Below are positions 2,092-38,839 of a DNA stretch of 64,000 nucleotides, piece by piece. The notes under the pieces were generated by a model. It was not told the DNA's origin. It searched no databases and worked only from the letters and a program-made list of their open reading frames with translations. Made by a program: the position numbers and the translations under genes. The stretch's first letter is position 1; every line of letters starts with the position of its first letter. The stretch comes from Candidatus Yanofskybacteria bacterium (lineage in GTDB: Bacteria > Patescibacteriota > Minisyncoccia > 2-02-FULL-40-12 > IGHO2-01-FULL-4-A), in the NCBI GenBank assembly GCA_016185545.1, contig JACPNJ010000005.1, positions 167,754-231,753 of the forward strand, in the 5' to 3' direction.

Positions 2092-3015
2092 CTAAGCGGA
2101 TAAATTATTTTCGGCCTGTATTACTTGATTTAATTCGTTGTCTGAAATGTGGTGGACATGTTTGTCGCTTGGAAATCTTTTTTCTTTTACGGCTTTGACA
2201 TACCATCGAAAAGCATCCAGGGTCGCTTCTCCGACGGTAATGCCCTGTCTCTCCGTAAGATATTTTTCAAAGTGGATCGGCGGATTACCCGGCCATTCAA
2301 AAAATCCAAGCAAATCCGAACTGATAACAAGCTGGCCGTCAAGTTTGCGGCCGGCGGCGATGCCAAATACTGGAATATTAACTTTTGATTTCAGCATTTC
2401 GGCCACCTCTTCAGTAACCGCTTCAATTAAAATCATGCAGGCACCCGCTTTTTCGGCTTCAACGATTACTTTGCTTAATTCCAAAAAACTTTCTCTTGTC
2501 TTACCTTGAGTTCTGTAACCCCCGAGCATTTCAGCTTTATTCGGATTTAAGCCGATATGGGCTACCACCAGGCAAGCATTGGCAACGGCTTCAATGCGAT
2601 CAATATAGTTAAGATTGATTTCTTCTTTTACCGCATTGCAACCCCCTTCCTTGATAAAGCGCAAGGCATTGCGTACCGCTTCTTCTTTTGAAACCTCATA
2701 CGAACCAAGCGGCATATCGCCGACAACGAACAATCTGTCCGTACCTCTTCTCACCGCTTGGGTAAACATAATCATCTCGTCCATTGTCTCCGGTAAAGTA
2801 TTGGCCCGACCCTGCAGGGTCATACTCACAGAATCACCGACAATAATCATATCCCCGCCAGCTCTATCAAATAAACGGGCATGTAGAGCATCATAAATGC
2901 TCAGGGCACAAATAATTTCGGGGTCCGGCCTCTTTTTTTTCATGTCATGCAAAGTCTTAATAGTCACCCGTTTGGTTTTTGACTGAAGGGGAATGGCGCT
3001 TTTTTCGTCAGACAT
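2092..3015 (-). CDS. panB: 3-methyl-2-oxobutanoate hydroxymethyltransferase (ketopantoate hydroxymethyltransferase)
   Basis: PanB motifs MIIVGDSVSMTLQG, VVGDMPLGSY, VVAHIGLNPN. Confidence 0.7.
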   Translation of the reverse strand: MSDEKSAIPLQSKTKRVTIKTLHDMKKKRPDPEIICALSIYDALHARLFDRAGGDMIIVGDSVSMTLQGRANTLPETMDEMIMFTQAVRRGTDRLFVVGDMPLGSYEVSKEEAVRNALRFIKEGGCNAVKEEINLNYIDRIEAVANACLVVAHIGLNPNKAEMLGGYRTQGKTRESFLELSKVIVEAEKAGACMILIEAVTEEVAEMLKSKVNIPVFGIAAGRKLDGQLVISSDLLGFFEWPGNPPIHFEKYLTERQGITVGEATLDAFRWYVKAVKEKRFPSDKHVHHISDNELNQVIQAENNLSA

Positions 3016-3106: not shown

Positions 3107-4768
3107 CTAATCAAGTATTTTAAAAGGTTCGTCTTTCTTTTGCGGCTTTGGCGGCGGGGGTATCAGCCCGCCTTGCGGCAAACCGCCTAGCATCGGCGTT
3201 GTCGCTTGAGACATTGTTCTCTTGGGCTCGTAAAGACGCTCGCCGGGAGCATGTTTCTTGTACTCCAACTCTATGCTTCTGCGGATATTTAGCAGAAGAC
3301 TTACAATTGAAAATTTCATCGGATATATTTTGAAAACATTCAGATAACCCTTAACGAAAAAATAAAAAATGAAATAAAGTTTTGCCAGAGGCAGTTTGAA
3401 CAGAAATTCGGCAAATTTCCTGGAATATAAGAACGGGAAAGCAAGAAATACCGTTCCCAGCAACGACATGTTGCTTTGCATTCTTTTTTCCAGTGGGGTA
3501 AAACAATTTAACGGACTCTCGTTTTGATAACTTGCGTTAAGATTACCGAAATCAGAATAATCAAACCAGCCGTTTTCTACCACATAGTCGGAAAGTTCAC
3601 AGCCCGGATAAGGATAAACGGGCGAGAATTCTCCGAAAGTAACTTTGGATTTTATATTCAACTCCAAAGAATCAAAATCGTAATCAATCGCCGTTTTTCC
3701 CTGCTCGGTCATTACTTCACTTTTTATCGGAATGGCCAAGATTGAATTGGCAAAAGTTTTGACGCCCATTTCATTGCAAAGCGCGAAGGCCTCTTCAATT
3801 TCAGGCCGGGTCATGTGGCGTTTTATGATTTTTTCTCTGATATAATCGTTGCCCGACTCAATGGACATTGTTAATGAATGAAGGCCGGCTTTCTTCAGGG
3901 CGGTAAGATTCTCTCTGGTCAAAACGTTGCATCGCGTTAAGCAGAAAAACGGCAGGCCGACTTCTTGAGGGTAAATTTCGGCAAATTCAGCAAGCCAAAA
4001 ATCAACGCTCCGGCTTAAAATAAACATATCGTCATAAAATTTAATGAACTGGGTAGGATACCTGTGTTTTAATTCTTTAAGTTCGGCGCATAATCGTCTA
4101 GGAGAATATCTTCTGTATATCGAACCCAAACCGCGCTGCTGGATGTTCGTTTTGGGTTCAAAACAATAAGTACATTCAAACGGACAGCCCCACGAACTCA
4201 TGAAACAGCGCATTGGAAATTTGCCTAAATGCGTTTTGCTGTAAACAATCTCTCTGTCATAAAAAGGTAGCCCATCCAGAGGGTGAGTTAATTTGTGTCT
4301 GAAACGATTCCGATTCGCTTCCGTTTCGTTTTTCCATTTGGAAAGCCAAGTCTCTCTGGTAAAAATATTAGGAATATTACCGGCATCTTCTCCGGCCTGT
4401 AAAGCTTTAAGCAGTTTTGGCCAAGCAACATCGCATTCGCCTACACCAATCGCGTTTAAATCGCTTTCTTCAATAATATCGGGATTGAAGGTCGGATGAG
4501 GCCCACCCATAATTGTAATAATATTTTTGGAATAATCCTTTACTTTGTCGTTAGCTTTCAGAAAAAATTGCTGTTCGCCAGTTTTTACACTGCAATGTGC
4601 GACTATATCCGGTTTGATACGCTTTAATTCTTCGCCCAAGTCGTCCTGACTCAAAACGGTTAAAAATGTCGCGAATCCTTCCCGTTTTGCCAAGGCTGAC
4701 ATCAGCATTACACCCATCGGGTCAATGTAATCAACGTTATTTACAACAAAAAGAATTTTGTCGGCCAC
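3107..4768 (-). CDS. B12-binding domain radical SAM enzyme (class B radical-SAM methyltransferase-like)
   Basis: N-terminal B12-binding-like fold, then a CxxxCxxC cluster (WGCPFECTYCFEP); 553 aa with a Pro-rich C-terminal tail. Confidence 0.75.
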   Translation of the reverse strand: MADKILFVVNNVDYIDPMGVMLMSALAKREGFATFLTVLSQDDLGEELKRIKPDIVAHCSVKTGEQQFFLKANDKVKDYSKNIITIMGGPHPTFNPDIIEESDLNAIGVGECDVAWPKLLKALQAGEDAGNIPNIFTRETWLSKWKNETEANRNRFRHKLTHPLDGLPFYDREIVYSKTHLGKFPMRCFMSSWGCPFECTYCFEPKTNIQQRGLGSIYRRYSPRRLCAELKELKHRYPTQFIKFYDDMFILSRSVDFWLAEFAEIYPQEVGLPFFCLTRCNVLTRENLTALKKAGLHSLTMSIESGNDYIREKIIKRHMTRPEIEEAFALCNEMGVKTFANSILAIPIKSEVMTEQGKTAIDYDFDSLELNIKSKVTFGEFSPVYPYPGCELSDYVVENGWFDYSDFGNLNASYQNESPLNCFTPLEKRMQSNMSLLGTVFLAFPFLYSRKFAEFLFKLPLAKLYFIFYFFVKGYLNVFKIYPMKFSIVSLLLNIRRSIELEYKKHAPGERLYEPKRTMSQATTPMLGGLPQGGLIPPPPKPQKKDEPFKILD

Positions 4769-5354: not shown

Positions 5355-5391
5355 CCGTTTAGCATTTATTAAAATGTTGTATAATAAAAAT

Positions 5392-5778
5392 ATGGAAAAC
5401 GTAAATCTAACCACAATGTTTGCCTCTGCTATTATACTCTCGGGGATTTTTGTTCTTAATTTGATTGTAGGTATGTACTACGGTTTTGGCGTTCGGCATT
5501 ACTGGTTTTTCCAGACATTGCATTTTTTGGGCGGGTTTTTTGTGGCTATGTTTTTCTCAAGCCTTTTCAACTCCACCGTTTTGATTTTAATAGGTCTTGG
5601 CGTCATCAGCATTTTGTGGGAATCGGCGGAGTTTTTGATTGCGTCTATTCCGACGCTTTCAAAATACGTAAAAGAGCAGTTCCGGCTTAAAAATGTGGAC
5701 TACAAATGGGCGGACGCCTTATTTGATCTTGCTTTAAATTCCACCGGCGCGATTCTGTTTATCTATATTTTTAAATGA
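5392..5778 (+). CDS. small integral membrane protein (hypothetical)
   Basis: hydrophobic segments; start moved to Met MENVNLTT because the 5' part of the ORF overlaps the inverted-repeat structure. Confidence 0.45.
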   Translation: MENVNLTTMFASAIILSGIFVLNLIVGMYYGFGVRHYWFFQTLHFLGGFFVAMFFSSLFNSTVLILIGLGVISILWESAEFLIASIPTLSKYVKEQFRLKNVDYKWADALFDLALNSTGAILFIYIFK

Positions 5779-6299
5779 CCAAGTGTATTTTTCTTGACCG
5801 TGATGGCGTGCTTGTTAAGAGCGTTTTAAGGAACGGGCAATTGGACGCGCCGTTTAATTTGGCTGAATTCGAAATTGTAAAGGATGCGCCGGACGCAGTA
5901 ACAAATTTTAAAAAATTGGGTTATCTTTGTATCGTAATTTCTAATCAGCCGGGTATCTCTCTAGGCCAGATTAGCCAGACGGAAGTTGAACTAATGAATC
6001 AAAAACTTCTAGCCCAATTGCTATTGGACGATATCTACATTTGTCCCCACTCTCATCTTGAGAATTGCGAGTGTCAAAAACCAAAAATCGGCCTTTTTTT
6101 AAAAGCAATCCAGAGATGGGAGATTGATCCCAAAATCTCGTTTATGATCGGAGACCGAGATACAGATATTCAAGCGGCCAAAAAAGTTGGTTGTCGCAGT
6201 ATTTTAATAACTGGCGGAGACGATTCTGGATTAACCGAGCCCGATTTTTATGCGACCAGTTTGACTGAGGCGGTTTTGGTGGTAGCTCAAAATAGCTAA
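5775..6299 (+). CDS. gmhB: D-glycero-D-manno-heptose 1,7-bisphosphate phosphatase-like HAD-IIIA phosphatase
   Basis: FLDRDGVL HAD motif I and the CxH...CxC zinc motif (CPHSHLENCECQKPK) typical of GmhB/histidinol-phosphatase-like enzymes. Confidence 0.7.
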   Translation: MTKCIFLDRDGVLVKSVLRNGQLDAPFNLAEFEIVKDAPDAVTNFKKLGYLCIVISNQPGISLGQISQTEVELMNQKLLAQLLLDDIYICPHSHLENCECQKPKIGLFLKAIQRWEIDPKISFMIGDRDTDIQAAKKVGCRSILITGGDDSGLTEPDFYATSLTEAVLVVAQNS

Positions 6300-6917: not shown

Positions 6918-7924
6918 GTAATGTGCAAGCACATATGGCGGTTTTCTCCTAACATGGAGAAATGGCCATATCTATGTCAAAAACAATCAAAGAAGAACGT
7001 TTAAGATGGGTACAGCCCATAGTCAGAAAAGAGGTAAAGTTGGTTGATGCGGCAAGGGTTTGTCTCTACGGCAAGCGTACTCTTGAGAGATGGGTTGCCG
7101 CATACAAAAAGAATGGTGAAAGCGGTTTAGAACCCAGGTCTACAGCACGCAAGACCCAAAACAACGAGACACCGATTCGTATTAAAGAGCATGTAATTGC
7201 GCTCCGCAAACAAACCCATAAATGCGCTTTGAAATTGTACTGGCACATGAAGAAGGAGGGATTGATTGTTCCAGCAAGAACCATCGGTAAAATCCTTAAA
7301 CAAGAAGGGCTGGTGCGAAAGTATCGGGTTAAACGAGTAAAGTATAAATATCTCAAAGCCACGCTCAAACCAGGCGAACTTGTGGAAATAGATGTTAAAT
7401 ATGTTCCCGGAGCTGTTGCGGGACGCCAATACTTTCAATATACCGCTGCCGACAAGGCTTCGCGGTGGAGACATCTTGAAATTTATGACGAGCAGGTCAA
7501 TCATCACAGCGTTTTGTTCCTTTCAGAAATAATCAGAAGGGCGCCATTTCATATTTTAGCAATCAAAACGGACAACCATTCAACATTTACTAATTACTAC
7601 ACCGGTACCAACAAAAGAAGCGACCTCTTGGTAAAGTCGCTTCATGCACTGGATATTGCCTGCCGAGAATATGGCATCAGACATTATTTAATTGACCCGG
7701 GCAAGCCGGCACAGAATGGCACAGTAGAACGAAGCCATCGTGAAGACCAAGAAAAGCTTTATGATAAACATTCGTTCGTTTCTGAAAAAGAGTTGCGCTA
7801 CCGCGTCAGATTGTGGAATATGTACTACAACAACCTTGAACACTGCGGGTTGAACGGAAAAACGCCAAATGAGTTTATCGCAAATTATCAACTAACCCAT
7901 CCGCCAAATGTGCCTGCCTAGAAC
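6918..7924 (+). mobile_element. IS481-family insertion sequence
   Basis: ~1 kb; terminal inverted repeats 'aatgtgcaagcacatatggcgg' vs the reverse complement of 'ccgccaaatgtgcctgcctagaac'; single DDE integrase-type transposase; interrupts an R1-R2 cassette that is intact at 8404-8529; short A-rich target duplication. Confidence 0.75.
6962..7921 (+). CDS. IS481-family transposase (integrase catalytic core, DDE)
   Basis: N-terminal HTH followed by an rve core with D (VEIDVKYV), D (IKTDNHSTF) and E (NGTVERSH). Confidence 0.85.
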   Translation: MAISMSKTIKEERLRWVQPIVRKEVKLVDAARVCLYGKRTLERWVAAYKKNGESGLEPRSTARKTQNNETPIRIKEHVIALRKQTHKCALKLYWHMKKEGLIVPARTIGKILKQEGLVRKYRVKRVKYKYLKATLKPGELVEIDVKYVPGAVAGRQYFQYTAADKASRWRHLEIYDEQVNHHSVLFLSEIIRRAPFHILAIKTDNHSTFTNYYTGTNKRSDLLVKSLHALDIACREYGIRHYLIDPGKPAQNGTVERSHREDQEKLYDKHSFVSEKELRYRVRLWNMYYNNLEHCGLNGKTPNEFIANYQLTHPPNVPA

Positions 7925-7957
7925 AAAAAAACAAAACCGCCAAATGGCGGCAAATCA
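7925..7957 (-). terminator. repeat R2 copy 1 (rho-independent terminator)
   Basis: minus strand: ccgccatttggcgg hairpin followed by ttttgtttt. Confidence 0.6.
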
Positions 7958-9065: not shown

Positions 9066-9096
9066 ATAAAAAAACCCGGCTCATTGGCTGGGTTTA
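9066..9096 (-). terminator. rho-independent terminator after the TPP enzyme gene
   Basis: minus strand: cccagccaatgagccggg hairpin followed by tttttttatttt. Confidence 0.6.
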
Positions 9097-10923
9097 AATT
9101 CCTTGCATCCCCTCTTCTTCATTATTTTTCAAAATATCAATTAACATGACTTCTCTTAATTCTTCCCGTGGCAAAAGCGGGTGCTGGTCTTCAAGCGGAT
9201 TACCGAATTCCAGCCGCGGAGCGATTTTCTGGTGTTCATCCAACATCACATCGCAAACAACCGGACCGTTATAATCCATGGCTTCTCTTATGCTTGATTC
9301 CATTTCGGCATGGTTATTAATTCTGAAAGCGGCAACATCATAAGCCCGGGCAACTTTTACAAAATCAGGACAACTATAACCATCGCGGGACGACACCGCC
9401 AAGTACCTTTTTTCAAGCTCTTCCACGCTGGCAATACCAAACCAAGACTCAATTGTCTGTTTAATGATTCCGTAACTGCGATTATTCAAAACAAAAACTT
9501 TAATCGGCAGTCCCAGCCGCTTAATCGTTTCCAATTCCTGTATGTGAACCTGGAATCCCCCGTCGCCGATTATGCAAACTACCGGTTTTTTATCATTGGC
9601 AAGACAGACGCCGATACTCGCGGCAAGCGAATAGCCCATTGAAGACAAGCCCATATTGGAAAAAACCCTTTGGCCTTCTTTTACCTCAAAGGCCTGCATT
9701 GTCCAAATAAGATTTCCGCCGCAATCGGTAATTACTGAAACGGAAGCATTCAGCATATTGGAAAGGATCTTTAAAAAAACATAAACATTGACCGAATCTT
9801 TTTGCTGATAATATTCAGGTAAAACTTCAGTGTATTTGACTTTATAATCCGTTGTTTGATTGCGCCACTCACCAATATTAAGCTTCGGGAGATATTTGTT
9901 TTGACCGAACAAAAGATCAAAGAAGTCGCGCAGGTCGCATTTGATAGGTAAATCAATTTTGACTCGCGCTCTTTCCAGCTCAAATTCATCAATATCAACC
10001 ATGATTTTTTTGGCGGCTCGCGCGAATGTATGCGGGCTCCCGCCGGTTTGCCTGACATTTAACCGCGCTCCAAGAGCAATAACCAAATCGGCGTTTTGAA
10101 TGGTAAAATTAGCCCGTCTGTTGCCATAACTGCCTATATTGCCCAGATAAAGCGGATGATTGTGCGGCATATTATCAAAAGCGGCCCAAGTAGCAACCGT
10201 GGGAATACTAAGTGATTCAACAAATTTTCGCGCTTGTCCAATTGTACCAGATAGTCTTAAACCGCCGCCAAGCAAAACAACAGGACGTTTGGCTTTTTTG
10301 ATTATGGTTAAGGCTTCAGCAACTTTACCGGCAAGTTTATCAAGCTCATTTTGCGGCGTATAACACGTGACCTGATAAATACCAATAAGTTTTTCCGGTT
10401 CAATATTGGCTTTCTGCACATCCAAAGGTATCTCAAGAAGCACCGGTCCCGGTCTGTCTTCGTTAGCAATAAGAACGGCTTTCTCCAGGTAATATCTTAT
10501 CTTCTCCGGGTCTTCGACATATTGGGCATACTTGGTAATAGAACCGGCGATAGTAACCATGTCTACAATCTCTCGGCCATGCGAAGCTACTTCTTTGTTG
10601 CGGTTCCATCTTTCTCTGACTACCTGCCCACAGATAAAGATACACGGAATGGAATCGTTCCAACACCCATCAATACCATTAAGCAAATTAAGGGCGCCGG
10701 GAGCATTGGTGGTTATTACCGCTCCAAGACCGCAATCCGCAAATCGCGAATATCCTTCTGCCGCCATAGCCGCCACTTGTTCATGATTAACGCATACGTG
10801 TTTTAACCGTGGTTCGTGGTGCAGTGAATCTATCAGATTTACCGCGTAACCGCCGGTAACCACAAAGACATGTTTTAGTCCCAAATCAGCCAAAAAATGA
10901 ATCACATAATCAGAAAGTTTCAT
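9094..10923 (-). CDS. thiamine-diphosphate-dependent acetolactate-synthase-like enzyme
   Basis: N-terminal TPP pyrimidine-binding domain (HVFVVTGGYAVNLIDSL), central domain and C-terminal TPP-binding domain (GDGGFQ); 609 aa with a C-terminal extension. Confidence 0.75.
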   Translation of the reverse strand: MKLSDYVIHFLADLGLKHVFVVTGGYAVNLIDSLHHEPRLKHVCVNHEQVAAMAAEGYSRFADCGLGAVITTNAPGALNLLNGIDGCWNDSIPCIFICGQVVRERWNRNKEVASHGREIVDMVTIAGSITKYAQYVEDPEKIRYYLEKAVLIANEDRPGPVLLEIPLDVQKANIEPEKLIGIYQVTCYTPQNELDKLAGKVAEALTIIKKAKRPVVLLGGGLRLSGTIGQARKFVESLSIPTVATWAAFDNMPHNHPLYLGNIGSYGNRRANFTIQNADLVIALGARLNVRQTGGSPHTFARAAKKIMVDIDEFELERARVKIDLPIKCDLRDFFDLLFGQNKYLPKLNIGEWRNQTTDYKVKYTEVLPEYYQQKDSVNVYVFLKILSNMLNASVSVITDCGGNLIWTMQAFEVKEGQRVFSNMGLSSMGYSLAASIGVCLANDKKPVVCIIGDGGFQVHIQELETIKRLGLPIKVFVLNNRSYGIIKQTIESWFGIASVEELEKRYLAVSSRDGYSCPDFVKVARAYDVAAFRINNHAEMESSIREAMDYNGPVVCDVMLDEHQKIAPRLEFGNPLEDQHPLLPREELREVMLIDILKNNEEEGMQGI

Positions 10924-10984: not shown

Positions 10985-11012
10985 AGGCAATAAAACCACC
11001 GTTTGGTGGTTT
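10985..11012. terminator. bidirectional terminator-like hairpin
   Basis: aaccaccgtttggtggtt flanked by A-rich and T-rich runs. Confidence 0.5.
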
Positions 11013-11548
11013 TAATTAAAAACTTCGGCATATCTTTCTTCCAGCCATCTTGTGATATTTATTTCTGTTTGCGTCCAAAAGTGCCATGGTAAACTGCAAT
11101 AGCCTAACTTTTTCATCTCGCGCCATGCATCTTTGACATCCCAACCCATCACTCCAACTCTGTATACAAAGCATAGGCACCCGGTGCGATCTCTGCCGAG
11201 AACGCAATGAACCAAGACCGGTTGATTTGACTTGCGGGAAACAAATTCAATGAATTTGTTTATTTCATCATCGCTGGGAGCACGACCTGATATGGGAATT
11301 TGCAGAACGGCAAGCTTGTGAGCCGATGCCCAATCAAATTCCCAATCTTCGGCATGTTTTAATAAAATAATAATAGAATTTATGCCATATTTTTCCACAA
11401 AATAAGACAATGCCTCCGGCGTGGGTTGAGACGATCGATACAGCTTCCCCGCTTCCACCTCGTAAAATCTAAATCTTTTTTCATACGACAACCAAGGAAT
11501 AAAATGTTTCAAACGCGTAACCACTTCGCGAAACATTGATTTAAGCAT
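11012..11548 (-). CDS. dual-specificity / tyrosine protein phosphatase
   Basis: CX5R P-loop VHCVLGRDRTG. Confidence 0.7.
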   Translation of the reverse strand: MLKSMFREVVTRLKHFIPWLSYEKRFRFYEVEAGKLYRSSQPTPEALSYFVEKYGINSIIILLKHAEDWEFDWASAHKLAVLQIPISGRAPSDDEINKFIEFVSRKSNQPVLVHCVLGRDRTGCLCFVYRVGVMGWDVKDAWREMKKLGYCSLPWHFWTQTEINITRWLEERYAEVFN

Positions 11549-11550: not shown

Positions 11551-12291
11551 CTACCCGCCTCTCCGAGAAAAGTATATTTTTTTAATGAGTTTGAGCACCG
11601 TCTTGGCAACGCTTATAATATTATCAATTCTCGTAGCATTAGTCCGTCCGTATTTACGGAGACCACGGGTATAAAACGGCGCTTCCGCATAGGAAAGGCG
11701 GTATTTTTTCAAAAGCATCACCAAGATCTCGGCCATATAAGCAAAATCATTGGCATCGGGGTTAAGCTCACGAAGTATTTTGGTCGGGATAATCGTCGTA
11801 CCGTTGTAGTAGCGAAGGCACAAATCGAAAATTAAATTCATGAATACGGTAAATGTTTTGGATATCAGGCGGCGCTTGAACGGCCGACGACTCATATCGG
11901 CTTGATAACCGATAACGATATCGGCGCGCTCCAGGCAATCAAAAAGGTTTTTCAAAGAATCGCCATGCAGGGTGTTTTTACCGGGCACCATCATAAAGTA
12001 ATCAAACCGCGCCGTTGCTAATCCTTGCTTATATTTTAAACCCAGATTGATGAAAGCTTGATTGTGAATAACACGCACTTTCTGATTTTGGCTTGCTAAC
12101 TGATTGGCAAGCTCTGGCGTGCCATCACTTGAACCGTCCGGCTCAAACGAGTCCACAATTATAATTTCCCAATCCACAACTTTGCCCTCTTGGACAAAAG
12201 TCATCATGTTTTCGTTAACATACCTGACCGCACCCTCCAAATTACCCGCTTCTTTGTGAGCGGGCATCACCACGCTCACAGAAACGGCCAT
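11551..12291 (-). CDS. family 2 glycosyltransferase
   Basis: VSVVMPAHKEAGNL N-terminus; GT-A fold. Confidence 0.7.
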   Translation of the reverse strand: MAVSVSVVMPAHKEAGNLEGAVRYVNENMMTFVQEGKVVDWEIIIVDSFEPDGSSDGTPELANQLASQNQKVRVIHNQAFINLGLKYKQGLATARFDYFMMVPGKNTLHGDSLKNLFDCLERADIVIGYQADMSRRPFKRRLISKTFTVFMNLIFDLCLRYYNGTTIIPTKILRELNPDANDFAYMAEILVMLLKKYRLSYAEAPFYTRGLRKYGRTNATRIDNIISVAKTVLKLIKKIYFSRRGG

Positions 12292-12418: not shown

Positions 12419-13630
12419 ATGGAAACTAGGCAAATTGACACACAATTTGATAGTCAAAAAATTATATATCATCCGGCTTGGCTGAAACGGTGGCTAAACG
12501 ACCCCTTTTCAGCGCCGCCGATTTATATGGAAATATCGCCTATCGGTCTTTGTAACCATCGCTGCACCTTCTGCGCCAAAGAAGTGATGGGGTATCCCGA
12601 CAGAAGTATCCCAAAAGAGAGGCTACTTTGGTTTGTCCAAGAACTGGCATATTTAAGATCTCATGATCCTGATGGCTTAGGCGTGAAAAGCCTAATGCAT
12701 GCTGGTGAAGGAGAACCGACACTCTATAAAGACCTTGCTGAAGTTATCGTGGAAACTACCAAATGCGGTATAGAAAGCGCGCTCACTACCAATGCCACCG
12801 GTTTAACGGAAAAATTTCTTGACACCGCTCTCCCGCATTTAAGCTGGATTAAGGCCAGCGTTAATGCCGGCAAGAAGGAGACCTATACAAAAATACACAA
12901 AGCCAAACCGAACCATTGGGATACCGTCTGGCGTAATCTTGAACGAGCAATAGAGATACGAGTAAAATTCGGTTATTCGTGCGAAATCGGTTGTCAAACG
13001 GTGCTTCTGGTAAATGACACAACAGACTTAGATGGCACAGTAGTGCCCGCCAACTGGCAAGAAGCTACTGATTTAGCAAAGAAGGCAAAAGAAACGGGCC
13101 TTGACCATGTGGTGATTAAGCCCTATGGCCAAAATCCATATAGCTTGGGAACCATGCAAAGATACGGCAACATGAAATATAACGGATTCTTAAAAGAACT
13201 GGAAGAAATGGACAAAGAACTACAGAAATTAAATAACGAAAATTTTAAAGTTGTTTTCAGATGGAATACTATACTTAGCTATGAAAAACCAAAACGGGAA
13301 TACGAAAAATGTCTGGCGACACCCATGTCCTGGGCATATCTCCAATCAGACGGCATGCTCATCAGTTGTGCCGCCCATAATAGCAACCCGGACTTTGACC
13401 TCGGCAACATAAAAGACAAAACCTTTAAAGAAATCTGGTGGGGCGAGCGCCGCCGCCGACACATTGAATTTATGAAAAATTTTGACATCTCCGCCTGCCG
13501 TAAAAATTGTAGGATGAATTTTGTAAACGAAGCCCTCTGGAATTTAGAAACGAAACGCCAATCCGGATTGGTAAGTATACAAGAAACTTTTCCGCCCGAT
13601 TCCTTACCCAAAAATGTTAATTTTATCTGA
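12419..13630 (+). CDS. radical SAM / SPASM-domain enzyme
   Basis: CNHRCTFC (Cx3Cx2C) cluster plus a C-terminal Cys-rich SPASM region; the ORF is open from 12356 (TTG) but AGGAG precedes the ATG at 12419. Confidence 0.7.
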   Translation: METRQIDTQFDSQKIIYHPAWLKRWLNDPFSAPPIYMEISPIGLCNHRCTFCAKEVMGYPDRSIPKERLLWFVQELAYLRSHDPDGLGVKSLMHAGEGEPTLYKDLAEVIVETTKCGIESALTTNATGLTEKFLDTALPHLSWIKASVNAGKKETYTKIHKAKPNHWDTVWRNLERAIEIRVKFGYSCEIGCQTVLLVNDTTDLDGTVVPANWQEATDLAKKAKETGLDHVVIKPYGQNPYSLGTMQRYGNMKYNGFLKELEEMDKELQKLNNENFKVVFRWNTILSYEKPKREYEKCLATPMSWAYLQSDGMLISCAAHNSNPDFDLGNIKDKTFKEIWWGERRRRHIEFMKNFDISACRKNCRMNFVNEALWNLETKRQSGLVSIQETFPPDSLPKNVNFI

Positions 13631-13648: not shown

Positions 13649-14230
13649 ATGCAACCGGTGCTGATTGTTTTTCTTGGAGTCCAGCTTTCAGGTAAAACAA
13701 CTCTGGCCCAAACAGTATCCCAAGAAACCGGCATTCCTTTTATCAATCTGGACCAAGTGAGAAAAGAACTATTTGGACCAGTTCTATCGGGACCAAAAGA
13801 TTGGCAAAATGCAGAAAAAGAAACCATAGAGAATGCGAAAACTGCGCAGGGCTATGAACGTCTTTTTACAATCATGGGAAACAGTGCCAAGCAAGGCAAA
13901 TCATTGATAGTAGAAATGCCATCGCTTACAAAAAAATGGGGCCTTGGCACCAGAGAAGATCAGCTTAAACAAATTGTTGAATTATCTTCGGCAAAATTAA
14001 AAATAATATGGTGCTACATTGCCAACAATGAAGAATCAGAAGTTAAAAAGAGATCCGATGAAAGATTAGAGGACATCCAAGCGGCTCCGATACGACCGGA
14101 AGATTATTATATGTTTAAAGCAAGATACGCAAGATGCGGAGGAAGGCCCGCGCTTGAACATTTAGCCATAGACACTTCGCAACCACAAGAAGTCTGTCTG
14201 GCGCAAATACGAAAATATCTGGACGCGTAA
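13649..14230 (+). CDS. P-loop kinase (AAA_33 / zeta-toxin-like fold)
   Basis: Walker A GVQLSGKTT. Confidence 0.55.
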   Translation: MQPVLIVFLGVQLSGKTTLAQTVSQETGIPFINLDQVRKELFGPVLSGPKDWQNAEKETIENAKTAQGYERLFTIMGNSAKQGKSLIVEMPSLTKKWGLGTREDQLKQIVELSSAKLKIIWCYIANNEESEVKKRSDERLEDIQAAPIRPEDYYMFKARYARCGGRPALEHLAIDTSQPQEVCLAQIRKYLDA

Positions 14231-14558: not shown

Positions 14559-15272
14559 ATGATAGATACAGCAATAATCTTAGCGGGTGGAAGAGGGCTA
14601 CGACTAATGCCCCAAACGGCCGAACAGCCAAAAGCTATGGTTAAAGTTTTGGGTCGCCCGATGATTGAATGGATAATACTTTGGCTTAAAAAAAATAAAA
14701 TAACGAACATAATCGTAAGTGTAGATTACAAAAAGGTAAAGTTGATGAAATATCTGGGAAATGGTAAAAAGTTTGGAGTAAATATATGCTATAACGACCA
14801 CGCGGGAGCGTCAGAAACAGGAGATGCATTTCGCAGTGTCTTTTTAAATATAAAATCTTTGCCAGATGTTTTTGTAGCGATGAATGGGGATCAAATTACA
14901 AATCTTCCAATCAAAAAACTTGTTGCCCACCACAAGAAACATGACCCGATAGCAACCATAGTGACCTGCCCTATAAAAAGTCCATACGGAATAGTCACTC
15001 ACAACAACCTTAATCACTTGGTCAAAGATTTCAAAGAAAAGCCTATTCTGCCGAATATTTACATGAATACCGGTATTTACATTTTCAACAAAAAAATCAT
15101 TAAGTATCTGCCGCAAAAAGGGTCAGTAGAGAGAACGACTTTCAAAAAATTAATCAGAGAACAAAAACTCAAAGCTTATATTCATAGGGGACTATTCGTC
15201 ACGATAAACGACAACAAAGACCTGCAAGATACTGAAAGTATTTTAACCAAATCAAAAATTAATTTTTTATGA
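14559..15272 (+). CDS. sugar-1-phosphate nucleotidyltransferase (GDP-heptose/mannose-1-P guanylyltransferase-like)
   Basis: N-terminal AIILAGGRGLRLMP nucleotidyltransferase motif. Confidence 0.7.
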   Translation: MIDTAIILAGGRGLRLMPQTAEQPKAMVKVLGRPMIEWIILWLKKNKITNIIVSVDYKKVKLMKYLGNGKKFGVNICYNDHAGASETGDAFRSVFLNIKSLPDVFVAMNGDQITNLPIKKLVAHHKKHDPIATIVTCPIKSPYGIVTHNNLNHLVKDFKEKPILPNIYMNTGIYIFNKKIIKYLPQKGSVERTTFKKLIREQKLKAYIHRGLFVTINDNKDLQDTESILTKSKINFL

Positions 15273-15381: not shown

Positions 15382-15669
15382 ATGAATCCCGTACGAACCA
15401 AAACGTTCTATTATGCATATGTAATACAAAGCAATAAAGATGGGCGTTTTTATACAGGTTTTACGGTGGATTTACGGAAGCGCCTTAAGGAGCATAATGA
15501 AAGTAAGTATATTTCTTGGACAAAAGGAAGGGGACCGTTTGACCTAATTTATTATGAAGCCTGCAAAAACAAAGAAGATGCCAGGCAAAGAGAAAAATAT
15601 CTTAAAACAGGACGAGGCAAGCGCTTTATTAAAGAAAGATTAAGGCGCTTCCTGGTTCGTACGGGATGA
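15382..15669 (+). CDS. GIY-YIG nuclease superfamily protein (YhbQ/COG2827-like, 95 aa)
   Basis: YYAYVIQSNKDGRFYTGFTVDLRKRLKEHN = GIY-YIG motif block; the ORF runs exactly between the 12-bp inverted repeats. Confidence 0.8.
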   Translation: MNPVRTKTFYYAYVIQSNKDGRFYTGFTVDLRKRLKEHNESKYISWTKGRGPFDLIYYEACKNKEDARQREKYLKTGRGKRFIKERLRRFLVRTG

Positions 15670-15671
15670 AA
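15382..15671 (+). mobile_element. inverted-repeat-bounded GIY-YIG unit flanked by ATGAA direct repeats
   Basis: ATGAAT-CCCGTACGAACC...GGTTCGTACGGG-ATGAAA; perfect 12-bp inverted repeat; 5-bp direct repeat. Confidence 0.65.
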
Positions 15672-16619
15672 GTATTAATAACCGGCATAACCGGATTTAT
15701 CGGAAGCGAACTTGCGCGCAAACTCTTAAAAGACGGGGACTTTGAAATCGCCGGTCTTTTGCGTACTTCTTCAAATCAGAAAAGAGTTGATGCTATAGAC
15801 GACATAATTAATAATATCAGGGTTTTTTATGCTAACTTCAATGACCACCATGCCATACGCAATGTAATAAAAACTTTCCGCCCTAATTATATACTTCACA
15901 TTGGCGCTCAAACTGCCGTGCGAGATTCTTTTGAAATGCCCCATGAGTTCAATGAAACAAACTATCTTGGCACCATCAATCTGATTCATGCGGCTCTTGA
16001 AGTGGCTGATTTTAAAAAATTTATATTCGCTTCCACGATGGAAGTCTACGGATTTCAGAAAGCTCGGAAGCCGTTTAGAGAAGATCTGCCGTTAAACCCG
16101 GGTAGTCCCTATGCTGCATCCAAGGCCGCCTGCGAACATTATCTGCGAATGGCTAATCAGGCTTTCGGCCTCCCCTATCTCATATCACGCGCCTGTAATA
16201 CGTATGGCAGAAAACATAACTCCGGATACATAGTTGAACATATCATTACATCCATGCTAGACCGAAAAAAGGTATACATAGGCACACCCAAAGCAGTACG
16301 CGATTTGATGCATGTAGATGACCATGTAAATGCCTACGTGACCCTGTTGAAATCTAATGTTGTTAATGAAACCTTTAACTTCGGCACCGGATCGGGCCTG
16401 ACCATGTTGGAGCTAGCCAACATTATCAAAAAAAGACTGGGTTACAAAGACAAAATAATCGCAAGATTTCCTTCGTGGTATCTTTTTCGTCCTTTGGCCG
16501 AGGAATATTTATCAATAGACAGTTTGAAAGCCAAAAAAATTCTTGGATGGGAACCGAGAATTTCTCTTGATAAGGGTCTGATTTCAACAATTGCATATTG
16601 GAAAAAGGTTAAAAAATAA
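15666..16619 (+). CDS. NAD-dependent sugar epimerase/dehydratase (extended SDR)
   Basis: ITGITGFIGSEL Rossmann motif; YAASK catalytic motif. Confidence 0.75.
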   Translation: MKVLITGITGFIGSELARKLLKDGDFEIAGLLRTSSNQKRVDAIDDIINNIRVFYANFNDHHAIRNVIKTFRPNYILHIGAQTAVRDSFEMPHEFNETNYLGTINLIHAALEVADFKKFIFASTMEVYGFQKARKPFREDLPLNPGSPYAASKAACEHYLRMANQAFGLPYLISRACNTYGRKHNSGYIVEHIITSMLDRKKVYIGTPKAVRDLMHVDDHVNAYVTLLKSNVVNETFNFGTGSGLTMLELANIIKKRLGYKDKIIARFPSWYLFRPLAEEYLSIDSLKAKKILGWEPRISLDKGLISTIAYWKKVKK

Positions 16620-17319: not shown

Positions 17320-18258
<939 letters not shown>

Positions 18259-37876: not shown

Positions 37877-38839
37877 TTACTCCAGGGTATTTTTTCTCCT
37901 TAATTTGGCCTCAATGGGTTTTTCTGAATCCAATAAAACTTTTGCGGGTTGGCCCAAATAAATAGGTAAATCCCTAAGCTGTACCGTCAATCTGCCCAAA
38001 CCGTATAATTCAAGACTGGCCGCTTGGTCTGTCCCCCACATAGCCCTATCCAGCGTAATGTGCCGCTCAATGACGCAGGCGCCTAATGAGGCGGCGACCA
38101 ATGAAGAATATACCCCGACCTCATGACCGGAGTAGCCGATATGAACCTTGGGGTATTTTTTAATCAGCCGGGGAATATTGGCTAAATGCAATTCATTGTC
38201 TTTACCGGGGTAAGTGGAGGTGCAATGCAAAATTACAAGATTTTCTTTCCCTAAAAATTTAACGATTTTTTCAATTCTCTCATCGTCGGTCATACCAACC
38301 GAGACTATAATAGGCTTACCCTTGGCTTTGATATGGGCCATCAGATTCCTGTCCAGGTTACATGCAGAAGCGATTTTGTAACAGGGCAGGTCAAACTGTT
38401 CAAGAAAGTCAACGCTTCCTTCATCCCATGGTGAAGCAAACCATAAAATTCCTTTCTGCCGGCAATATCGGTCAATTTCCCGATATTCTTTTTGCGTCAG
38501 CTCCAAAGCCCATTTAAGATCCCCGTTCGTAGAATTTTCAAAATCGGAATTGGTCAGTCGCTTGACGGCTTCATCGGAAAGGACTCCTCGTCTAACGGCA
38601 TTTCTCAACACGCCTTCGTTAACTTGGCGCGGCTTTGCCAATTCTTCAGCGGTATAGACAACCGGCACGGTTCTTTTTTGAAATTTAACCGCGTCACATC
38701 TCTGCGCAACTGCCCCGTCAATAAGCTTTTTAGCAATCTCAATATCGCCGTTATGGTTTATTCCAATCTCCGCAACTATAAAAACCGGCTGGTTGTATCC
38801 AATCTCTTTGCTTCCTATTTTCAACATCTCGGCTCCCAA
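37877..38839 (-). CDS. NeuB-family (sialic-acid-synthase-like) enzyme without a SAF domain
   Basis: VFIVAEIGINHNGD...DAVKFQKR. Confidence 0.7.
   Translation of the reverse strand: MGAEMLKIGSKEIGYNQPVFIVAEIGINHNGDIEIAKKLIDGAVAQRCDAVKFQKRTVPVVYTAEELAKPRQVNEGVLRNAVRRGVLSDEAVKRLTNSDFENSTNGDLKWALELTQKEYREIDRYCRQKGILWFASPWDEGSVDFLEQFDLPCYKIASACNLDRNLMAHIKAKGKPIIVSVGMTDDERIEKIVKFLGKENLVILHCTSTYPGKDNELHLANIPRLIKKYPKVHIGYSGHEVGVYSSLVAASLGACVIERHITLDRAMWGTDQAASLELYGLGRLTVQLRDLPIYLGQPAKVLLDSEKPIEAKLRRKNTLE

What the first reader, a model, noticed from the sequence alone, without database searches (positions are those of the whole stretch)
3107..4768. Three radical-SAM enzymes in the island (a B12-binding class-B type at 3107..4768; SPASM types at 12419..13630 and 41981..43237)
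B12-dependent radical-SAM methyltransferases methylate unactivated carbons, and SPASM/twitch radical-SAM enzymes perform sugar dehydrogenation or epimerisation (BtrN-like). Together with a C-methyltransferase (19445) and two other methyltransferases, this suggests heavily C-/O-methylated or epimerised sugars.
Basis: partly seen in the sequence, partly recalled or inferred. Interest (0 to 1): 0.5.

Follow-up and report, generated by a model that had tools for sequence, protein, structure and literature searches.

The report
Three radical-SAM sugar-tailoring enzymes, two cassettes
The three radical-SAM genes are real and almost certainly modify sugars, but they belong to two conserved, undescribed gene cassettes: one appears to build a carbon-branched sugar, the other to alter a sialic-acid-like sugar.

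Summary
Observation confirmed. The window holds exactly three CxxxCxxC radical-SAM genes: 3107-4768(-), with a B12-binding domain; 12419-13630(+); and 41981-43171(-).

The two "SPASM" enzymes keep only four conserved auxiliary cysteines, so they are twitch-type like BtrN, not full SPASM. The sugar 3-C-methyltransferase at 19445-20746 is also real.

The sugar context is strong and there is no sign of a RiPP system, but neither methylation nor epimerisation is shown.

New here is that the three genes fall into two conserved cassettes.
- **Cassette A.** Twitch rSAM#1, a YerE-like ThDP carboligase (9094-10923), a small GT2 and the B12-rSAM recur together across phyla. The ThDP partner is swapped among the three ThDP classes (YerE-like, E1 alpha/beta, split transketolase) reported or proposed to C-branch keto-sugars. 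Heptose-activation genes are often adjacent. This points to an acyl-branched, further alkylated sugar.
- **Cassette B.** rSAM#2 has a GFO/IDH oxidoreductase directly downstream in 43 of 61 related loci. It lies near NeuB in 27 of 40 loci and near a CMP-transferase in 29 of 40, against 0 of 80 control glycan loci. This points to a radical step in nonulosonic-acid synthesis.

No paper found describes either cassette. The nearest genome is a "Candidatus Yanofskybacteria" (CPR) MAG. The chemistries are inferred, not shown.

The parts
3107..4768 (-). B12-binding-domain (class-B architecture) radical-SAM enzyme, 553 aa. Uncharacterised family with a disordered Pro-rich tail (507-553).
   Evidence: Pfam. 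CPFECTYC motif. Family alignment A1 has 61% mean column identity, with an invariant GGPHxTF in the N-domain. AF2 pLDDT 80.8. Foldseek hits: AprD4, MgmA, TsrM, CysS, TokK. No NCBIfam cutoff reached.
2092..3015 (-). PanB-like ketopantoate hydroxymethyltransferase, directly downstream of the B12-rSAM. Possible maker of a hydroxy-2-oxo-acid donor (speculative).
   Evidence: Pfam 252 bits. TIGR00222 209.4 vs cutoff 207.55. Same position in L001. The donor logic comes from PMC9306805.
634..1398 (-). Small GT2 glycosyltransferase (copy a), at the end of the B12-rSAM operon.
   Evidence: Pfam. A GT2 of this type lies directly upstream of the B12-rSAM in 7 of the 13 closest loci and is present in 8.
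5775..6299 (+). GmhB-like HAD-IIIA heptose-bisphosphate phosphatase.
   Evidence: NCBIfam: histidinol-ppas domain 116.4 > 84.15; GmhB models 113 and 90.6 bits, below their cutoffs.
6962..7921 (+). IS481-family transposase that splits cassette A. Absent from the sister MAG.
   Evidence: NCBIfam 194 bits. Flanking 98-nt direct repeats. L001 lacks it.
9094..10923 (-). YerE-like ThDP-dependent carboligase, candidate sugar C-branching enzyme.
   Evidence: TPP_enzyme N/M/C domains. Best PDB matches are JanthE 8rph (347.7 bits) and 5ahk (313), against at most 243.6 for ALS. JanthE is a YerE-like enzyme (PMC12188165). ALS equivalog not reached: 371 < 538.
11012..11548 (-). Dual-specificity/PTP-type phosphatase.
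   Evidence: Pfam. Syntenic in L001.
11551..12291 (-). Small GT2 glycosyltransferase (copy b), divergent from rSAM#1.
   Evidence: Pfam. Co-occurrence.
12419..13630 (+). Twitch-type radical-SAM enzyme #1, 403 aa.
   Evidence: Pfam. Invariant Cys pattern. A ThDP enzyme lies within about 6 kb in most orthologue loci. SIS or HldE is directly adjacent in L090 and L173 and within 2 kb in L174. Fusions to CTP_transf_like exist.
13649..14230 (+). AAA_33 P-loop kinase, 19 bp downstream of rSAM#1.
   Evidence: Pfam. Same pairing in L001.
14559..15272 (+). Sugar-1-phosphate nucleotidyltransferase (HddC/ManC-like).
   Evidence: Pfam. NCBIfam sub-cutoff hits include heptose-1-P guanylyltransferase, 85.8 bits. 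The sister MAG has an HldE-like gene here instead.
15666..16619 (+). NDP-sugar 4,6-dehydratase, a source of a 4-keto sugar.
   Evidence: Pfam GDP_Man_Dehyd 205 bits. NCBIfam dTDP-glucose dehydratase 181.9 bits, sub-cutoff.
17329..18258 (+). GDP-fucose-synthase-like epimerase/reductase.
   Evidence: Pfam. NCBIfam 250 bits, cutoff 500.
19445..20746 (+). NDP-sugar 3-C-methyltransferase family enzyme.
   Evidence: Pfam. PDB 4rv9, TcaB9 and 5t6b.
37877..38839 (-). Divergent short NeuB-family synthase without a SAF domain (NeuB2).
   Evidence: Pfam. NCBIfam 209.5 < 399.65. Short NeuB genes lie next to rSAM#2 homologues in L005-L009 and L171.
38976..39554 (-). GmhA-like SIS sugar-phosphate isomerase.
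   Evidence: Pfam SIS_2. NCBIfam gmhA 158.9 < 209.45.
39705..40934 (+). DegT/LegC/PseC-family sugar aminotransferase (DegT2).
   Evidence: Pfam. NCBIfam LegC family 212 < 420. A DegT gene lies within 8 kb of rSAM#2 in 7 of the 10 closest metagenome loci with enough flank (at least 45% identity) and in L171.
40956..42005 (-). GFO/IDH/MocA NAD(P)-dependent sugar oxidoreductase. Its start overlaps the end of rSAM#2 by 25 nt.
   Evidence: Pfam. Directly downstream of rSAM#2 in 43 of 61 related loci.
41981..43171 (-). BtrN-like twitch radical-SAM enzyme #2, 396 aa, with an alpha-helical N-terminal domain of about 110 aa.
   Evidence: Pfam. Invariant Cys pattern. AF2 pLDDT 88.6. Foldseek top hit BtrN 4m7t, then DesII, SuiB and BlsE. 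NeuB, CMP-transferase and GFO association.
43292..43873 (-). KdsC / KDN-9-P-phosphatase-like HAD.
   Evidence: Pfam. NCBIfam 78.9 bits, cutoff 180. Also beside rSAM#2 in L009, L092 and L171.

Best explanation
All three radical-SAM enzymes tailor glycan precursors, in two separate conserved cassettes.

**Cassette A (about 634-20746, split by an IS481).** It combines twitch rSAM#1 (12419-13630), a YerE-like ThDP carboligase (9094-10923), a small GT2 (11551-12291, with a second copy at 634-1398) and the B12-domain rSAM (3107-4768). Sugar-activation genes accompany them. The proposed route is:
1. A nucleotide-activated heptose or 6-deoxyhexose is made. This is shown only as gene content.
2. A ring ketone is generated, by the 4,6-dehydratase and/or by BtrN-like radical oxidation by rSAM#1. 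This is inferred.
3. The ThDP enzyme adds an acyl anion equivalent to that ketone, giving a C-branched sugar with a tertiary alcohol. This is inferred from homology to JanthE/YerE and from non-orthologous replacement by the two other ThDP classes linked to sugar branching.
4. The PanB-like enzyme may supply a hydroxylated 2-oxo-acid donor. This is speculative.
5. The B12-domain rSAM then modifies an unactivated carbon of the sugar or its branch. C-methylation is the most likely reaction, but a B12-independent dehydratase or rearrangement is not excluded.
6. The adjacent GT2 transfers the product.

**Cassette B (37877-43873).** BtrN-like twitch rSAM#2 (41981-43171) and the overlapping GFO/IDH oxidoreductase (40956-42005) work as a pair inside a NeuB/CMP-transferase locus. 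The radical enzyme oxidises, or eliminates DesII-style, at an unactivated sugar carbon. The resulting ketone is then either reduced by the GFO enzyme (net epimerisation or deoxygenation) or transaminated by DegT2. The outcome would be a non-canonical nonulosonic or ulosonic acid.
For: Sugar context, not peptide:
- The gene map of the whole window is made of glycan genes.
- No SPASM 7-Cys motif is conserved.

Cassette A:
- The order rSAM#1, GT2, phosphatase, ThDP, B12-rSAM, PanB is syntenic in the Yanofskybacteria MAG.
- A GT2 is directly upstream of the B12-rSAM in L010, L012-L016 and L018.
- A ThDP enzyme lies near rSAM#1 in most orthologue loci. It is YerE/ALS-like in the window, L001, L002, L019 and L021. 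It is E1 alpha/beta in L013, L014, L174 and the P0227 locus. It is a split transketolase in L018, L020, L053 and L090.
- L174 shows the whole set as one operon: epimerase, HldE, SIS, two unknowns, rSAM#1, E1a, E1b, GT2, B12-rSAM.
- The window's ThDP enzyme matches JanthE and 5ahk better than any ALS.
- Review PMC12247030 names exactly these three ThDP classes as known or proposed natural sugar C-branching enzymes. For the miharamycin transketolase it notes a preceding oxidoreductase that makes the ketone.
- rSAM#1 is fused to a CTP_transf_like nucleotidyltransferase in P0181, P0200 and P0227.

Cassette B:
- In loci with at least 6 kb of flank, GFO occurs in 30 of 40, a CMP-transferase in 29 and NeuB in 27, all within 8 kb.
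- GFO is directly downstream in 43 of 61 loci.
- 0 of 80 B12-rSAM glycan loci contain NeuB or a CMP-transferase.
- The same cassette occurs in Bacillus pseudomycoides, a second Yanofskybacteria MAG and others.
- P0429 is a natural fusion of a CMP-transferase-like domain with an rSAM#2-like enzyme.
- The fold is closest to BtrN, DesII and BlsE, all sugar-acting enzymes.
Against: - There is no biochemical or glycan-structure data.
- None of the three reaches any NCBIfam equivalog cutoff.
- The B12-binding Pfam score is marginal: 32.8 vs 32.1.
- The closest solved structure to the B12-rSAM, AprD4, is a dehydratase rather than a methylase. From memory it does not use cobalamin.
- A ThDP enzyme is missing beside rSAM#1 in L173 and L175.
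- Most cassette-A loci were fetched through the B12-rSAM, so B12/rSAM#1 co-occurrence is biased. In loci fetched through rSAM#1, a B12-rSAM is present in 3 of 5.
- The NeuB association of rSAM#2 is 27 of 40, not universal.
- Neighbour calling used tblastn with the window's own proteins, so divergent neighbours are missed.
- rSAM#1 carries an extra invariant core Cys (C188). That would fit an epimerase as well as a dehydrogenase.
Confidence: 0.6

Rival explanations
1. The B12-rSAM is a sugar C-methyltransferase, and the two SPASM/twitch enzymes are stand-alone hexose dehydrogenases or epimerases. They act independently on ordinary NDP-hexoses of one O-antigen-like glycan and have no dedicated partner enzymes.
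For: Glycan gene context. BtrN is the top fold match for rSAM#2. The B12-rSAM shares its architecture with the methylases TsrM, TokK, CysS and MgmA. A conventional 3-C-methyltransferase and two other methyltransferases are present.
Against: Tight, recurrent partner genes argue for dedicated multi-enzyme cassettes and for different substrates:
- GT2 beside the B12-rSAM.
- A ThDP enzyme beside rSAM#1.
- GFO/IDH overlapping rSAM#2.
- NeuB and a CMP-transferase nearby.
Confidence: 0.2
2. The B12-domain enzyme is not a methyltransferase. It would be a cobalamin-independent diol dehydratase like AprD4, or a rearrangement or ring-contraction enzyme (as recalled for HpnJ and OxsB), acting on the sugar that the neighbouring GT2 handles. 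This rival concerns one step of the main model only.
For: AprD4 is the only PDB sequence hit (E 3e-14) and the top Foldseek hit. The best NCBIfam hit is HpnJ (77.8 bits). From memory, HpnJ works after the GT2 enzyme HpnI, which mirrors the GT2/B12-rSAM gene pair.
Against: All these matches are far below family cutoffs (77.8 vs 577.6; 49.1 vs 500) and at 15-17% identity. The N-terminal domain is strongly conserved across the family, including an invariant GGPHxTF, and superposes on corrinoid proteins (1y80, MttC, MtaC). This suggests a functional cofactor domain.
Confidence: 0.25
3. The SPASM-domain enzymes are RiPP maturases acting on an unannotated precursor peptide.
For: Pfam SPASM hits. Weak NCBIfam hits to peptide maturases and the SuiB and SkfB fold matches. 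In B. pseudomycoides an NRPS lies about 6 kb away.
Against: - Only four auxiliary Cys are conserved.
- No PqqD/RRE Pfam hit.
- The N-terminal domain of rSAM#2 is predicted to be mostly helical, without the three-stranded sheet of an RRE.
- Flanking gaps are 19-128 bp, or overlapping genes.
- Conserved neighbours are sugar enzymes in dozens of loci.
- The short ORF upstream of the B12-rSAM in L001 is not conserved in the window.
Confidence: 0.03
4. The twitch enzymes are viperin-like antiviral nucleotide-modifying enzymes, with the adjacent AAA_33 kinase as the partner kinase.
For: The best NCBIfam hit of rSAM#1 is prokaryotic viperin (53 bits). PADLOC pVip hits score 50-56 bits. A kinase is adjacent.
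Against: The scores are far below cutoff (53 vs 180) and cover only the rSAM core (profile positions 9-122 of 257). Both twitch enzymes give the same partial hit. The twitch domain and the conserved glycan neighbours do not fit.
Confidence: 0.02

Closest known systems
BtrN (butirosin 2-deoxy-scyllo-inosamine dehydrogenase; twitch radical SAM)
   Same: It is the top structural match of rSAM#2 (4m7t, E 6e-12, TM 0.72 normalised to BtrN). The auxiliary Cys spacing C-x17-C-x45-C-x2-C resembles BtrN's four-Cys single cluster (BtrN spacing from memory). An aminotransferase lies nearby; from memory, BtrN is followed by the aminotransferase BtrS.
   Different: Identity is 19%. rSAM#2 has an extra helical N-terminal domain of about 110 aa. 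It has an obligatory GFO/IDH neighbour and sits in NeuB/CMP-transferase loci, not aminoglycoside clusters. The substrate is unknown.
DesII (with DesI) and AprD4 (with AprD3): radical-SAM lyase or dehydratase plus partner enzyme for sugar deoxygenation
   Same: DesII is the best PDB sequence hit of rSAM#2 (E 5e-8). AprD4 is the best hit of the B12-rSAM. The gene logic of aminotransferase, rSAM and NAD(P)H oxidoreductase parallels DesI/DesII and AprD4/AprD3 (pathway roles from memory).
   Different: NCBIfam equivalog scores are far below cutoff: DesII gives 22.8 vs 450 for rSAM#1 and is not in the displayed top 25 of 56 hits for rSAM#2, and AprD4 gives 49.1 vs 500. The contexts are different.
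Class-B cobalamin-dependent radical-SAM methylases (TsrM, TokK, CysS, MgmA; sugar-acting GenK, GenD1 and MoeK5 from memory)
   Same: N-terminal Rossmann-type B12-binding domain followed by the rSAM barrel. Foldseek E values are 1e-12 to 3e-16.
   Different: Identity is 15-17%. No family cutoff is met. The Pfam B12 score is marginal. The family has its own conserved C-terminal helical domain of about 100 aa and a constant GT2 neighbour.
YerE-type acyl-branched-sugar pathways (yersiniose, erwiniose, caryophyllose; JanthE and PpYerE structures)
   Same: The window's ThDP enzyme is closest to JanthE and 5ahk. The cluster also holds deoxy-keto-sugar genes, reductases, a candidate donor-forming enzyme and GTs, as in the unifying scheme of PMC9306805.
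   Different: The described pathways contain no radical-SAM enzymes. Here two rSAM families travel with the ThDP enzyme. In relatives the ThDP enzyme is an E1 alpha/beta or split-transketolase type, outside the actinomycete secondary-metabolite clusters where those types were reported. Heptose-activation genes are adjacent in several loci.
Legionaminic, pseudaminic and Kdn nonulosonic-acid pathways
   Same: The island has a canonical Leg/Neu-type set: NeuB 438.6 > 399.65 and NeuC 392.6 > 235.9. It also has KdsC / KDN-9-P-phosphatase-like HADs and three CMP-transferases.
   Different: No radical-SAM step was found in the searchable literature on these pathways. NeuB2 and NeuB3 fall below the equivalog cutoffs.

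Membership tests
Radical SAM superfamily | CxxxCxxC cluster motif and a PF04055 score above the gathering cutoff | tested here: met
   Motifs CPFECTYC, CNHRCTFC and CNLRCEMC. PF04055 scores 64.9, 58.3 and 78.4 vs cutoff 29.5.
Class B (cobalamin-dependent) radical SAM | N-terminal B12-binding Rossmann domain | tested here: met
   PF02310 32.8 vs 32.1, which is marginal. The precomputed Pfam of nearly all listed homologues agrees. The N-domain superposes on corrinoid proteins and the whole model on TsrM, TokK and CysS.
Class B (cobalamin-dependent) radical SAM | Actual cobalamin binding and methyl transfer | not testable with these tools
   No sequence motif decides this. The closest structure, AprD4, is a diol dehydratase (6fd2 entry title) and from memory lacks B12.
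SPASM (two auxiliary clusters) | Seven-Cys motif CX9-15GX4C...CX2CX5CX3C...C (motif recalled from memory) | tested here: not met
   Only four auxiliary Cys are invariant in each family. The PF13186 hits (33.4 and 42.8 bits) cover the shared N-terminal part of the motif.
Twitch radical SAM (BtrN/MoaA type) | Abbreviated SPASM domain with one four-Cys auxiliary cluster | tested here: met
   C326/C344/C390/C393 in rSAM#2 and C298/C317/C360/C364 in rSAM#1, both with GX4C. BtrN is the top fold match for rSAM#2.
NCBIfam N_Twi_rSAM (NF033640) | Score of at least 170 bits over the whole model | tested here: not met
   rSAM#2 scores 73.1 bits, matching core positions 105-294 only.
AprD4 (NF033070), HpnJ (TIGR03471), PhpK (TIGR04479), BchE (TIGR02026) | Equivalog cutoff | tested here: not met
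   49.1 vs 500, 77.8 vs 577.6, 50.9 vs 600 and 58.2 vs 481.
DesII (TIGR04426), BlsE (TIGR04466), MoaA, viperin | Equivalog cutoff | tested here: not met
   All hits are far below cutoff. Examples: viperin 53 vs 180, MoaA 59 vs 284, BlsE 35 vs 400. The PADLOC pVip hits are partial only.
RiPP radical-SAM maturase | Adjacent precursor peptide gene and an RRE/PqqD-like leader-binding domain | tested here: not met
   No PqqD hit. Tight or overlapping gene junctions. The N-domain is helical. Conserved neighbours are sugar enzymes.
YerE-like ketone-accepting ThDP carboligase (9094-10923) | Closer to characterised YerE-like enzymes than to ALS, and located in a keto-sugar gene cluster | tested here: met
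   JanthE 347.7 and 5ahk 313 bits, against at most 243.6 for ALS. The ALS equivalog is not met: 371 < 538. A 4,6-dehydratase and an NTP-transferase lie in the cluster.
YerE-like ketone-accepting ThDP carboligase (9094-10923) | Acceptance of a keto-sugar as acyl acceptor | not testable with these tools
   Needs an enzyme assay.
NDP-sugar 3-C-methyltransferase (TcaB9/TylC3 type) for 19445-20746 | Zn-binding N-domain, SAM domain and C-terminal C-methyltransferase domain | tested here: met
   PF08421 (30.2 bits, just under its 31.3 cutoff), PF13489 and PF08484 at 153 bits. Full-length PDB matches.

The most novel reading that the evidence does not exclude
Two undescribed radical-SAM-dependent sugar pathways are encoded here and are widespread in uncultured microbes.
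1. The rSAM#2/GFO-IDH pair would be a previously unrecognised radical step in nonulosonic-acid biosynthesis. It would create new sialic-acid-like sugars. The family has about 3,180 50%-identity cluster representatives at E <= 1e-30, found in marine and groundwater metagenomes, CPR bacteria and Bacillus.
2. The quartet of twitch rSAM, ThDP carboligase, GT2 and B12-rSAM would make a C-branched, radical-alkylated heptose or hexose of a type not yet seen in any glycan. It is used by CPR bacteria, DPANN archaea and, for the rSAM#1/transketolase pair only (no GT2 or B12-rSAM detected in that locus), a cultured Campylobacterota species in its flagellin glycosylation island.
Probability: 0.35. Interest if true: 0.7.

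Novelty: new variant of a known kind. Interest (0 to 1): 0.55.

Why it matters
Radical-SAM sugar tailoring is known from a handful of antibiotic pathways, such as BtrN, DesII, AprD4 and GenK. Here it appears as a conserved part of cell-surface glycan synthesis.

If cassette B is confirmed, the textbook nonulosonic-acid pathways would gain a radical step. That would predict new sialic-acid-like epitopes in many environmental bacteria.

If cassette A is confirmed, the recently proposed "unifying scheme" for acyl-branched sugars would extend in three directions:
- to radical chemistry;
- to heptoses;
- to E1-type and split-transketolase branching enzymes outside actinomycete secondary metabolism.

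Both cassettes have homologues in cultured organisms: Malaciobacter molluscorum for rSAM#1 with a transketolase, and Bacillus pseudomycoides for rSAM#2. The hypotheses are therefore directly testable.

The nearest genome is labelled as a CPR bacterium. That would mean a lineage known for small genomes devotes at least 64 kb and three oxygen-sensitive, cofactor-hungry enzymes to surface glycans.

Tried and rejected
- **RiPP reading.** Rejected. There is no precursor and no RRE, the Cys pattern is twitch-type, and the conserved neighbours are sugar genes.
- **Viperin or defence reading.** Rejected. The pVip matches are partial and cover only the rSAM core.
- **Phosphonate (Fom3/PhpK-like) reading of B12-rSAM, ThDP enzyme and 'PEP-mutase-like' gene.** Rejected. 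The PanB-like protein scores as PanB (252 bits Pfam, TIGR00222 met). The ThDP enzyme has the ALS/YerE three-domain layout and matches JanthE rather than a phosphonopyruvate decarboxylase. PhpK scores 50.9 vs 600.
- **Hopanoid HpnI/HpnJ analogy for GT2 plus B12-rSAM.** Kept only as a mechanistic analogy. Membership is not met (77.8 vs 577.6).
- **Membrane anchoring of the B12-rSAM C-terminal helices.** No TM-grade hydropathy; the maximum is 1.42.
- **Structured RNAs.** No Rfam family anywhere in the window.
- **Literature.** Six searches combined radical SAM, or CPR bacteria, with nonulosonic, ulosonic, flagellin glycosylation, branched sugar and related terms. None found a paper describing these enzymes. 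The C. jejuni HS:19 paper only lists unrelated rSAM genes. The Acinetobacter K12 paper gave nothing on oxidoreductase steps.
- **N-terminal part of fusion protein P0363.** No PDB match.
- **Genome scan.** The genome-contig scan did not recover the source genome or the closest MAG, so the organism is inferred only from the NCBI label of the nearest MAG.


Full report
**1. Observation**

The ORF table and Pfam confirm three radical-SAM genes.
- 3107-4768(-), 553 aa: B12-binding 32.8 bits (cutoff 32.1) and Radical_SAM 64.9 bits.
- 12356/12419-13630(+): Radical_SAM 58.3 and SPASM 33.4 bits.
- 41981-43237(-): Radical_SAM 78.4 and SPASM 42.8 bits.

A six-frame scan finds exactly three CxxxCxxC motifs in ORFs of at least 100 aa, one per gene.

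Homologue lengths fix the starts at 12419 (403 aa) and 43171 (396 aa). The C-methyltransferase at 19445-20746 is a full-length relative of the solved sugar 3-C-methyltransferases 4rv9, TcaB9 and 5t6b. Two further methyltransferases are present.

None of the three rSAM proteins reaches the curated cutoff of any NCBIfam model. They belong to unnamed families.

**2. The island**

Pfam and NCBIfam scans of about 58 ORFs show a glycan island from end to end. It contains:
- glycosyltransferases GT2, GT1/GT4 and GT9, and a GT-C (PMT_2);
- a Wzm/Wzt ABC exporter;
- a canonical Leg/Neu-type nonulosonic pathway at 28568-36476, with the NeuB and NeuC equivalog cutoffs met;
- two further divergent NeuB paralogues, three CMP-transferases and two KdsC-like phosphatases;
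- three ThDP enzymes.

All three rSAM proteins have their closest relatives (87-92% identity) on one 374-kb contig of a MAG labelled Candidatus Yanofskybacteria, GCA_016181175.1. Shared blocks are 80-88% identical at the DNA level.

**3. SPASM or twitch**

In a 22-sequence alignment of the rSAM#2 family, the only invariant Cys outside the SAM cluster are C326, C344, C390 and C393, spaced C-x17-C-x45-C-x2-C.

In a 19-sequence alignment of the rSAM#1 family they are C298, C317, C360 and C364, plus one invariant core Cys, C188.

Both are therefore single-auxiliary-cluster 'twitch' enzymes, the kind that acts on small molecules. The AF2 model of rSAM#2 (pLDDT 88.6) matches BtrN best, followed by DesII, SuiB and BlsE. 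By sequence, DesII, BtrN and BlsE are its top PDB hits.

**4. The B12-domain enzyme**

The family is tightly conserved at 47-63% identity across Rokubacteria, NC10, Elusimicrobia, Brocadiales and Parcubacteria. The N-terminal domain carries many invariant residues, including GGPHxTF.

The AF2 model (pLDDT 80.8) matches AprD4, MgmA, TsrM, CysS and TokK at 15-17% identity. Its N-domain alone matches corrinoid proteins.

The architecture is therefore class B. Whether it methylates, or behaves like AprD4 (by memory cobalamin-free), cannot be decided from sequence.

**5. Cassette A**

Neighbourhoods were taken from the look-up of encoding contigs and from a scan of 80 GTDB-genome loci. They were annotated by tblastn with the window's proteins and by Pfam.

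- A small GT2 lies directly upstream of the B12-rSAM in 7 of the 13 closest loci and is present in 8.
- rSAM#1 orthologues lie in the same loci.
- A ThDP enzyme lies next to rSAM#1 in most loci, and it comes in three unrelated types:
  - YerE/ALS-like in the window, L001, L002 and the archaeal L019 and L021;
  - E1 alpha/beta in L013, L014, L174 and the P0227 locus;
  - split transketolase in L018, L020, L053 and L090.
- L174 is a clean operon: epimerase, HldE, SIS, two unknowns, rSAM#1, E1a, E1b, GT2, B12-rSAM.

The window's ThDP protein is nearer to JanthE (8rph, 347.7 bits) and 5ahk (313 bits) than to any acetolactate synthase (at most 243.6 bits). JanthE is a characterised YerE-like, ketone-accepting carboligase (PMC12188165).

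A 2025 review lists exactly these three ThDP classes (YerE-like, alpha-KADH2 and split-gene transketolases) as the enzymes reported or proposed to C-branch keto-sugars in nature. In the transketolase case it notes that an oxidoreductase first installs the ketone (PMC12247030).

Non-orthologous replacement among those three classes, next to the same rSAM, is the strongest argument that cassette A makes a C-branched sugar.

Several observations point to a nucleotide-activated heptose as the scaffold in many members:
- GmhA-like SIS and HldE-like genes are directly adjacent to rSAM#1 in L090 and L173 and within 2 kb in L174.
- rSAM#1 is fused to a CTP_transf_like nucleotidyltransferase in P0181, P0200 and P0227.
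- The window itself has an HddC/ManC-like transferase, a GmhB-like phosphatase and a 4,6-dehydratase.

The scheme for acyl-branched sugars also requires an enzyme that makes the hydroxylated 2-oxo-acid donor (PMC9306805). The PanB-like gene, which follows the B12-rSAM here and in L001, could play that part. This is speculation.

My working order of reactions is in the Best explanation section. Only gene content and homology are shown; every chemical step is inferred.

**6. Cassette B**

rSAM#2 overlaps the start of a GFO/IDH oxidoreductase by 25 nt. It sits among a short NeuB, a GmhA-like SIS, a DegT aminotransferase and a KdsC-like HAD.

The same set appears in Bacillus pseudomycoides, in another Yanofskybacteria MAG, in an unrelated 733-kb scaffold and in the sister MAG.

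A metagenome scan gave 80 more loci.
- Among the 40 with at least 6 kb of flank, GFO/IDH is present in 30, a CMP-transferase in 29 and NeuB in 27, all within 8 kb.
- GFO/IDH is directly downstream on the same strand in 43 of 61 loci.
- As a control, none of the 80 B12-rSAM glycan loci has a NeuB or CMP-transferase hit.

An exhaustive profile search finds 3,180 50%-identity cluster representatives at E <= 1e-30. These include a natural fusion of a CMP-transferase-like domain with an rSAM#2-like enzyme (P0429) and a fusion with a D-2-hydroxyacid dehydrogenase (P0434).

I conclude that the rSAM#2/GFO pair is a dedicated two-enzyme step of nonulosonic or ulosonic-acid biosynthesis. Candidate chemistries are:
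- BtrN-type oxidation followed by stereo-inverting reduction, giving an epimer;
- BtrN-type oxidation followed by transamination;
- DesI/DesII-type amino-elimination followed by reduction, giving a deoxy sugar.

The data do not choose among them.

**7. Rivals**

- A RiPP role is excluded as far as sequence can show: no precursor, no RRE, twitch Cys pattern, sugar neighbours.
- Viperin-like hits cover only the rSAM core.
- A phosphonate reading fails, because the PanB-like and ThDP proteins match PanB and YerE-like enzymes rather than PEP mutase and phosphonopyruvate decarboxylase.
- A non-methylating role for the B12-domain enzyme remains a live alternative, at about 0.25.

**8. Novelty and verdict**

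Six literature searches found no paper linking radical-SAM enzymes, or CPR bacteria, to nonulosonic-acid synthesis, flagellin glycosylation or ThDP sugar branching.

The enzymes are new members of known superfamilies. The two cassettes are new variants of known pathway types: acyl-branched sugars and nonulosonic acids.

The finding is real and moderately interesting. Its value is that it turns three anonymous rSAM genes into two specific hypotheses that can be tested in culture. Interest 0.55.

Noticed in passing
window 6819-8532: An IS481-family transposase (6962-7921) interrupts cassette A between the GmhB-like gene and the ThDP gene. It is bracketed by a 98-nt direct repeat (6819-6916 and 8404-8501, 97%) and a 35-nt repeat (7926-7960 and 8498-8532). 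The sister MAG lacks the insertion.
   Followed up: partly
window 5193-5355: A nested inverted repeat lies in the 531-bp gap between the B12-rSAM and the divergent small membrane protein gene (5299-5778). The outer arms are 29 nt and 97% complementary; the inner arms are 18 nt. It has no Rfam match and could be a MITE or a regulatory hairpin.
   Followed up: partly
window 51698-57078: A third ThDP enzyme (transketolase/DXS-like, 52485-54434) lies with an SDR and an aldehyde dehydrogenase next to the divergent NeuB3. The block is conserved in the sister MAG (L171). It may be a third, unexplored ulosonic-acid route.
   Followed up: partly
window 2092-3015: A PanB-like ketopantoate hydroxymethyltransferase just reaches the TIGR00222 cutoff (209.4 vs 207.55) yet sits in a glycan operon directly after the B12-rSAM. 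The same is true in L001. This is an odd place for a pantothenate enzyme.
   Followed up: partly
window 29747-30118: A small gene of the 23S-rRNA-intervening-sequence protein family (PF05635) is embedded in the Leg-type nonulosonic-acid operon.
   Followed up: no
window 40966-43140 vs L171 10032-12199: The rSAM#2/GFO2 gene pair is inverted as a unit relative to the sister MAG. The window also carries five extra genes (APH-type kinase, SDR, KdsC-like HAD, EamA-family transporter, histidine phosphatase; 44037-48635) that the MAG lacks.
   Followed up: partly
L175 1-15083; L002 1-21590: Related glycan loci are extremely rich in radical-SAM genes. L175 holds six rSAM genes (five with a SPASM-domain hit) plus two B12-rSAM genes in 15 kb. 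L002 holds four B12-rSAM genes plus one twitch rSAM.
   Followed up: no
L090 1-21089 (Malaciobacter molluscorum): In a cultured Campylobacterota species, the rSAM#1 homologue with a split transketolase lies in a flagellin glycosylation island. The island has three flagellins, a Maf gene, a short NeuB, a CMP-transferase fused to a HAD, and two more rSAM-SPASM genes.
   Followed up: partly
proteins P0429, P0434, P0417, P0363: rSAM#2-family enzymes occur fused to other domains: a CMP-transferase-like domain (P0429), a D-2-hydroxyacid dehydrogenase (P0434), and two N-terminal domains I could not identify by homology (P0417, whose sequence looked methyltransferase-like by eye only, and P0363).
   Followed up: partly
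window 57189-60997: A Wzm/Wzt ABC exporter (Wzt has a weak C-terminal glycan-binding domain hit) lies next to an 11-TM GT-C (PMT_2) protein. If the CPR assignment holds and the cell has no outer membrane, the glycan's acceptor (S-layer, pilin or wall polymer) is an open question.
   Followed up: no
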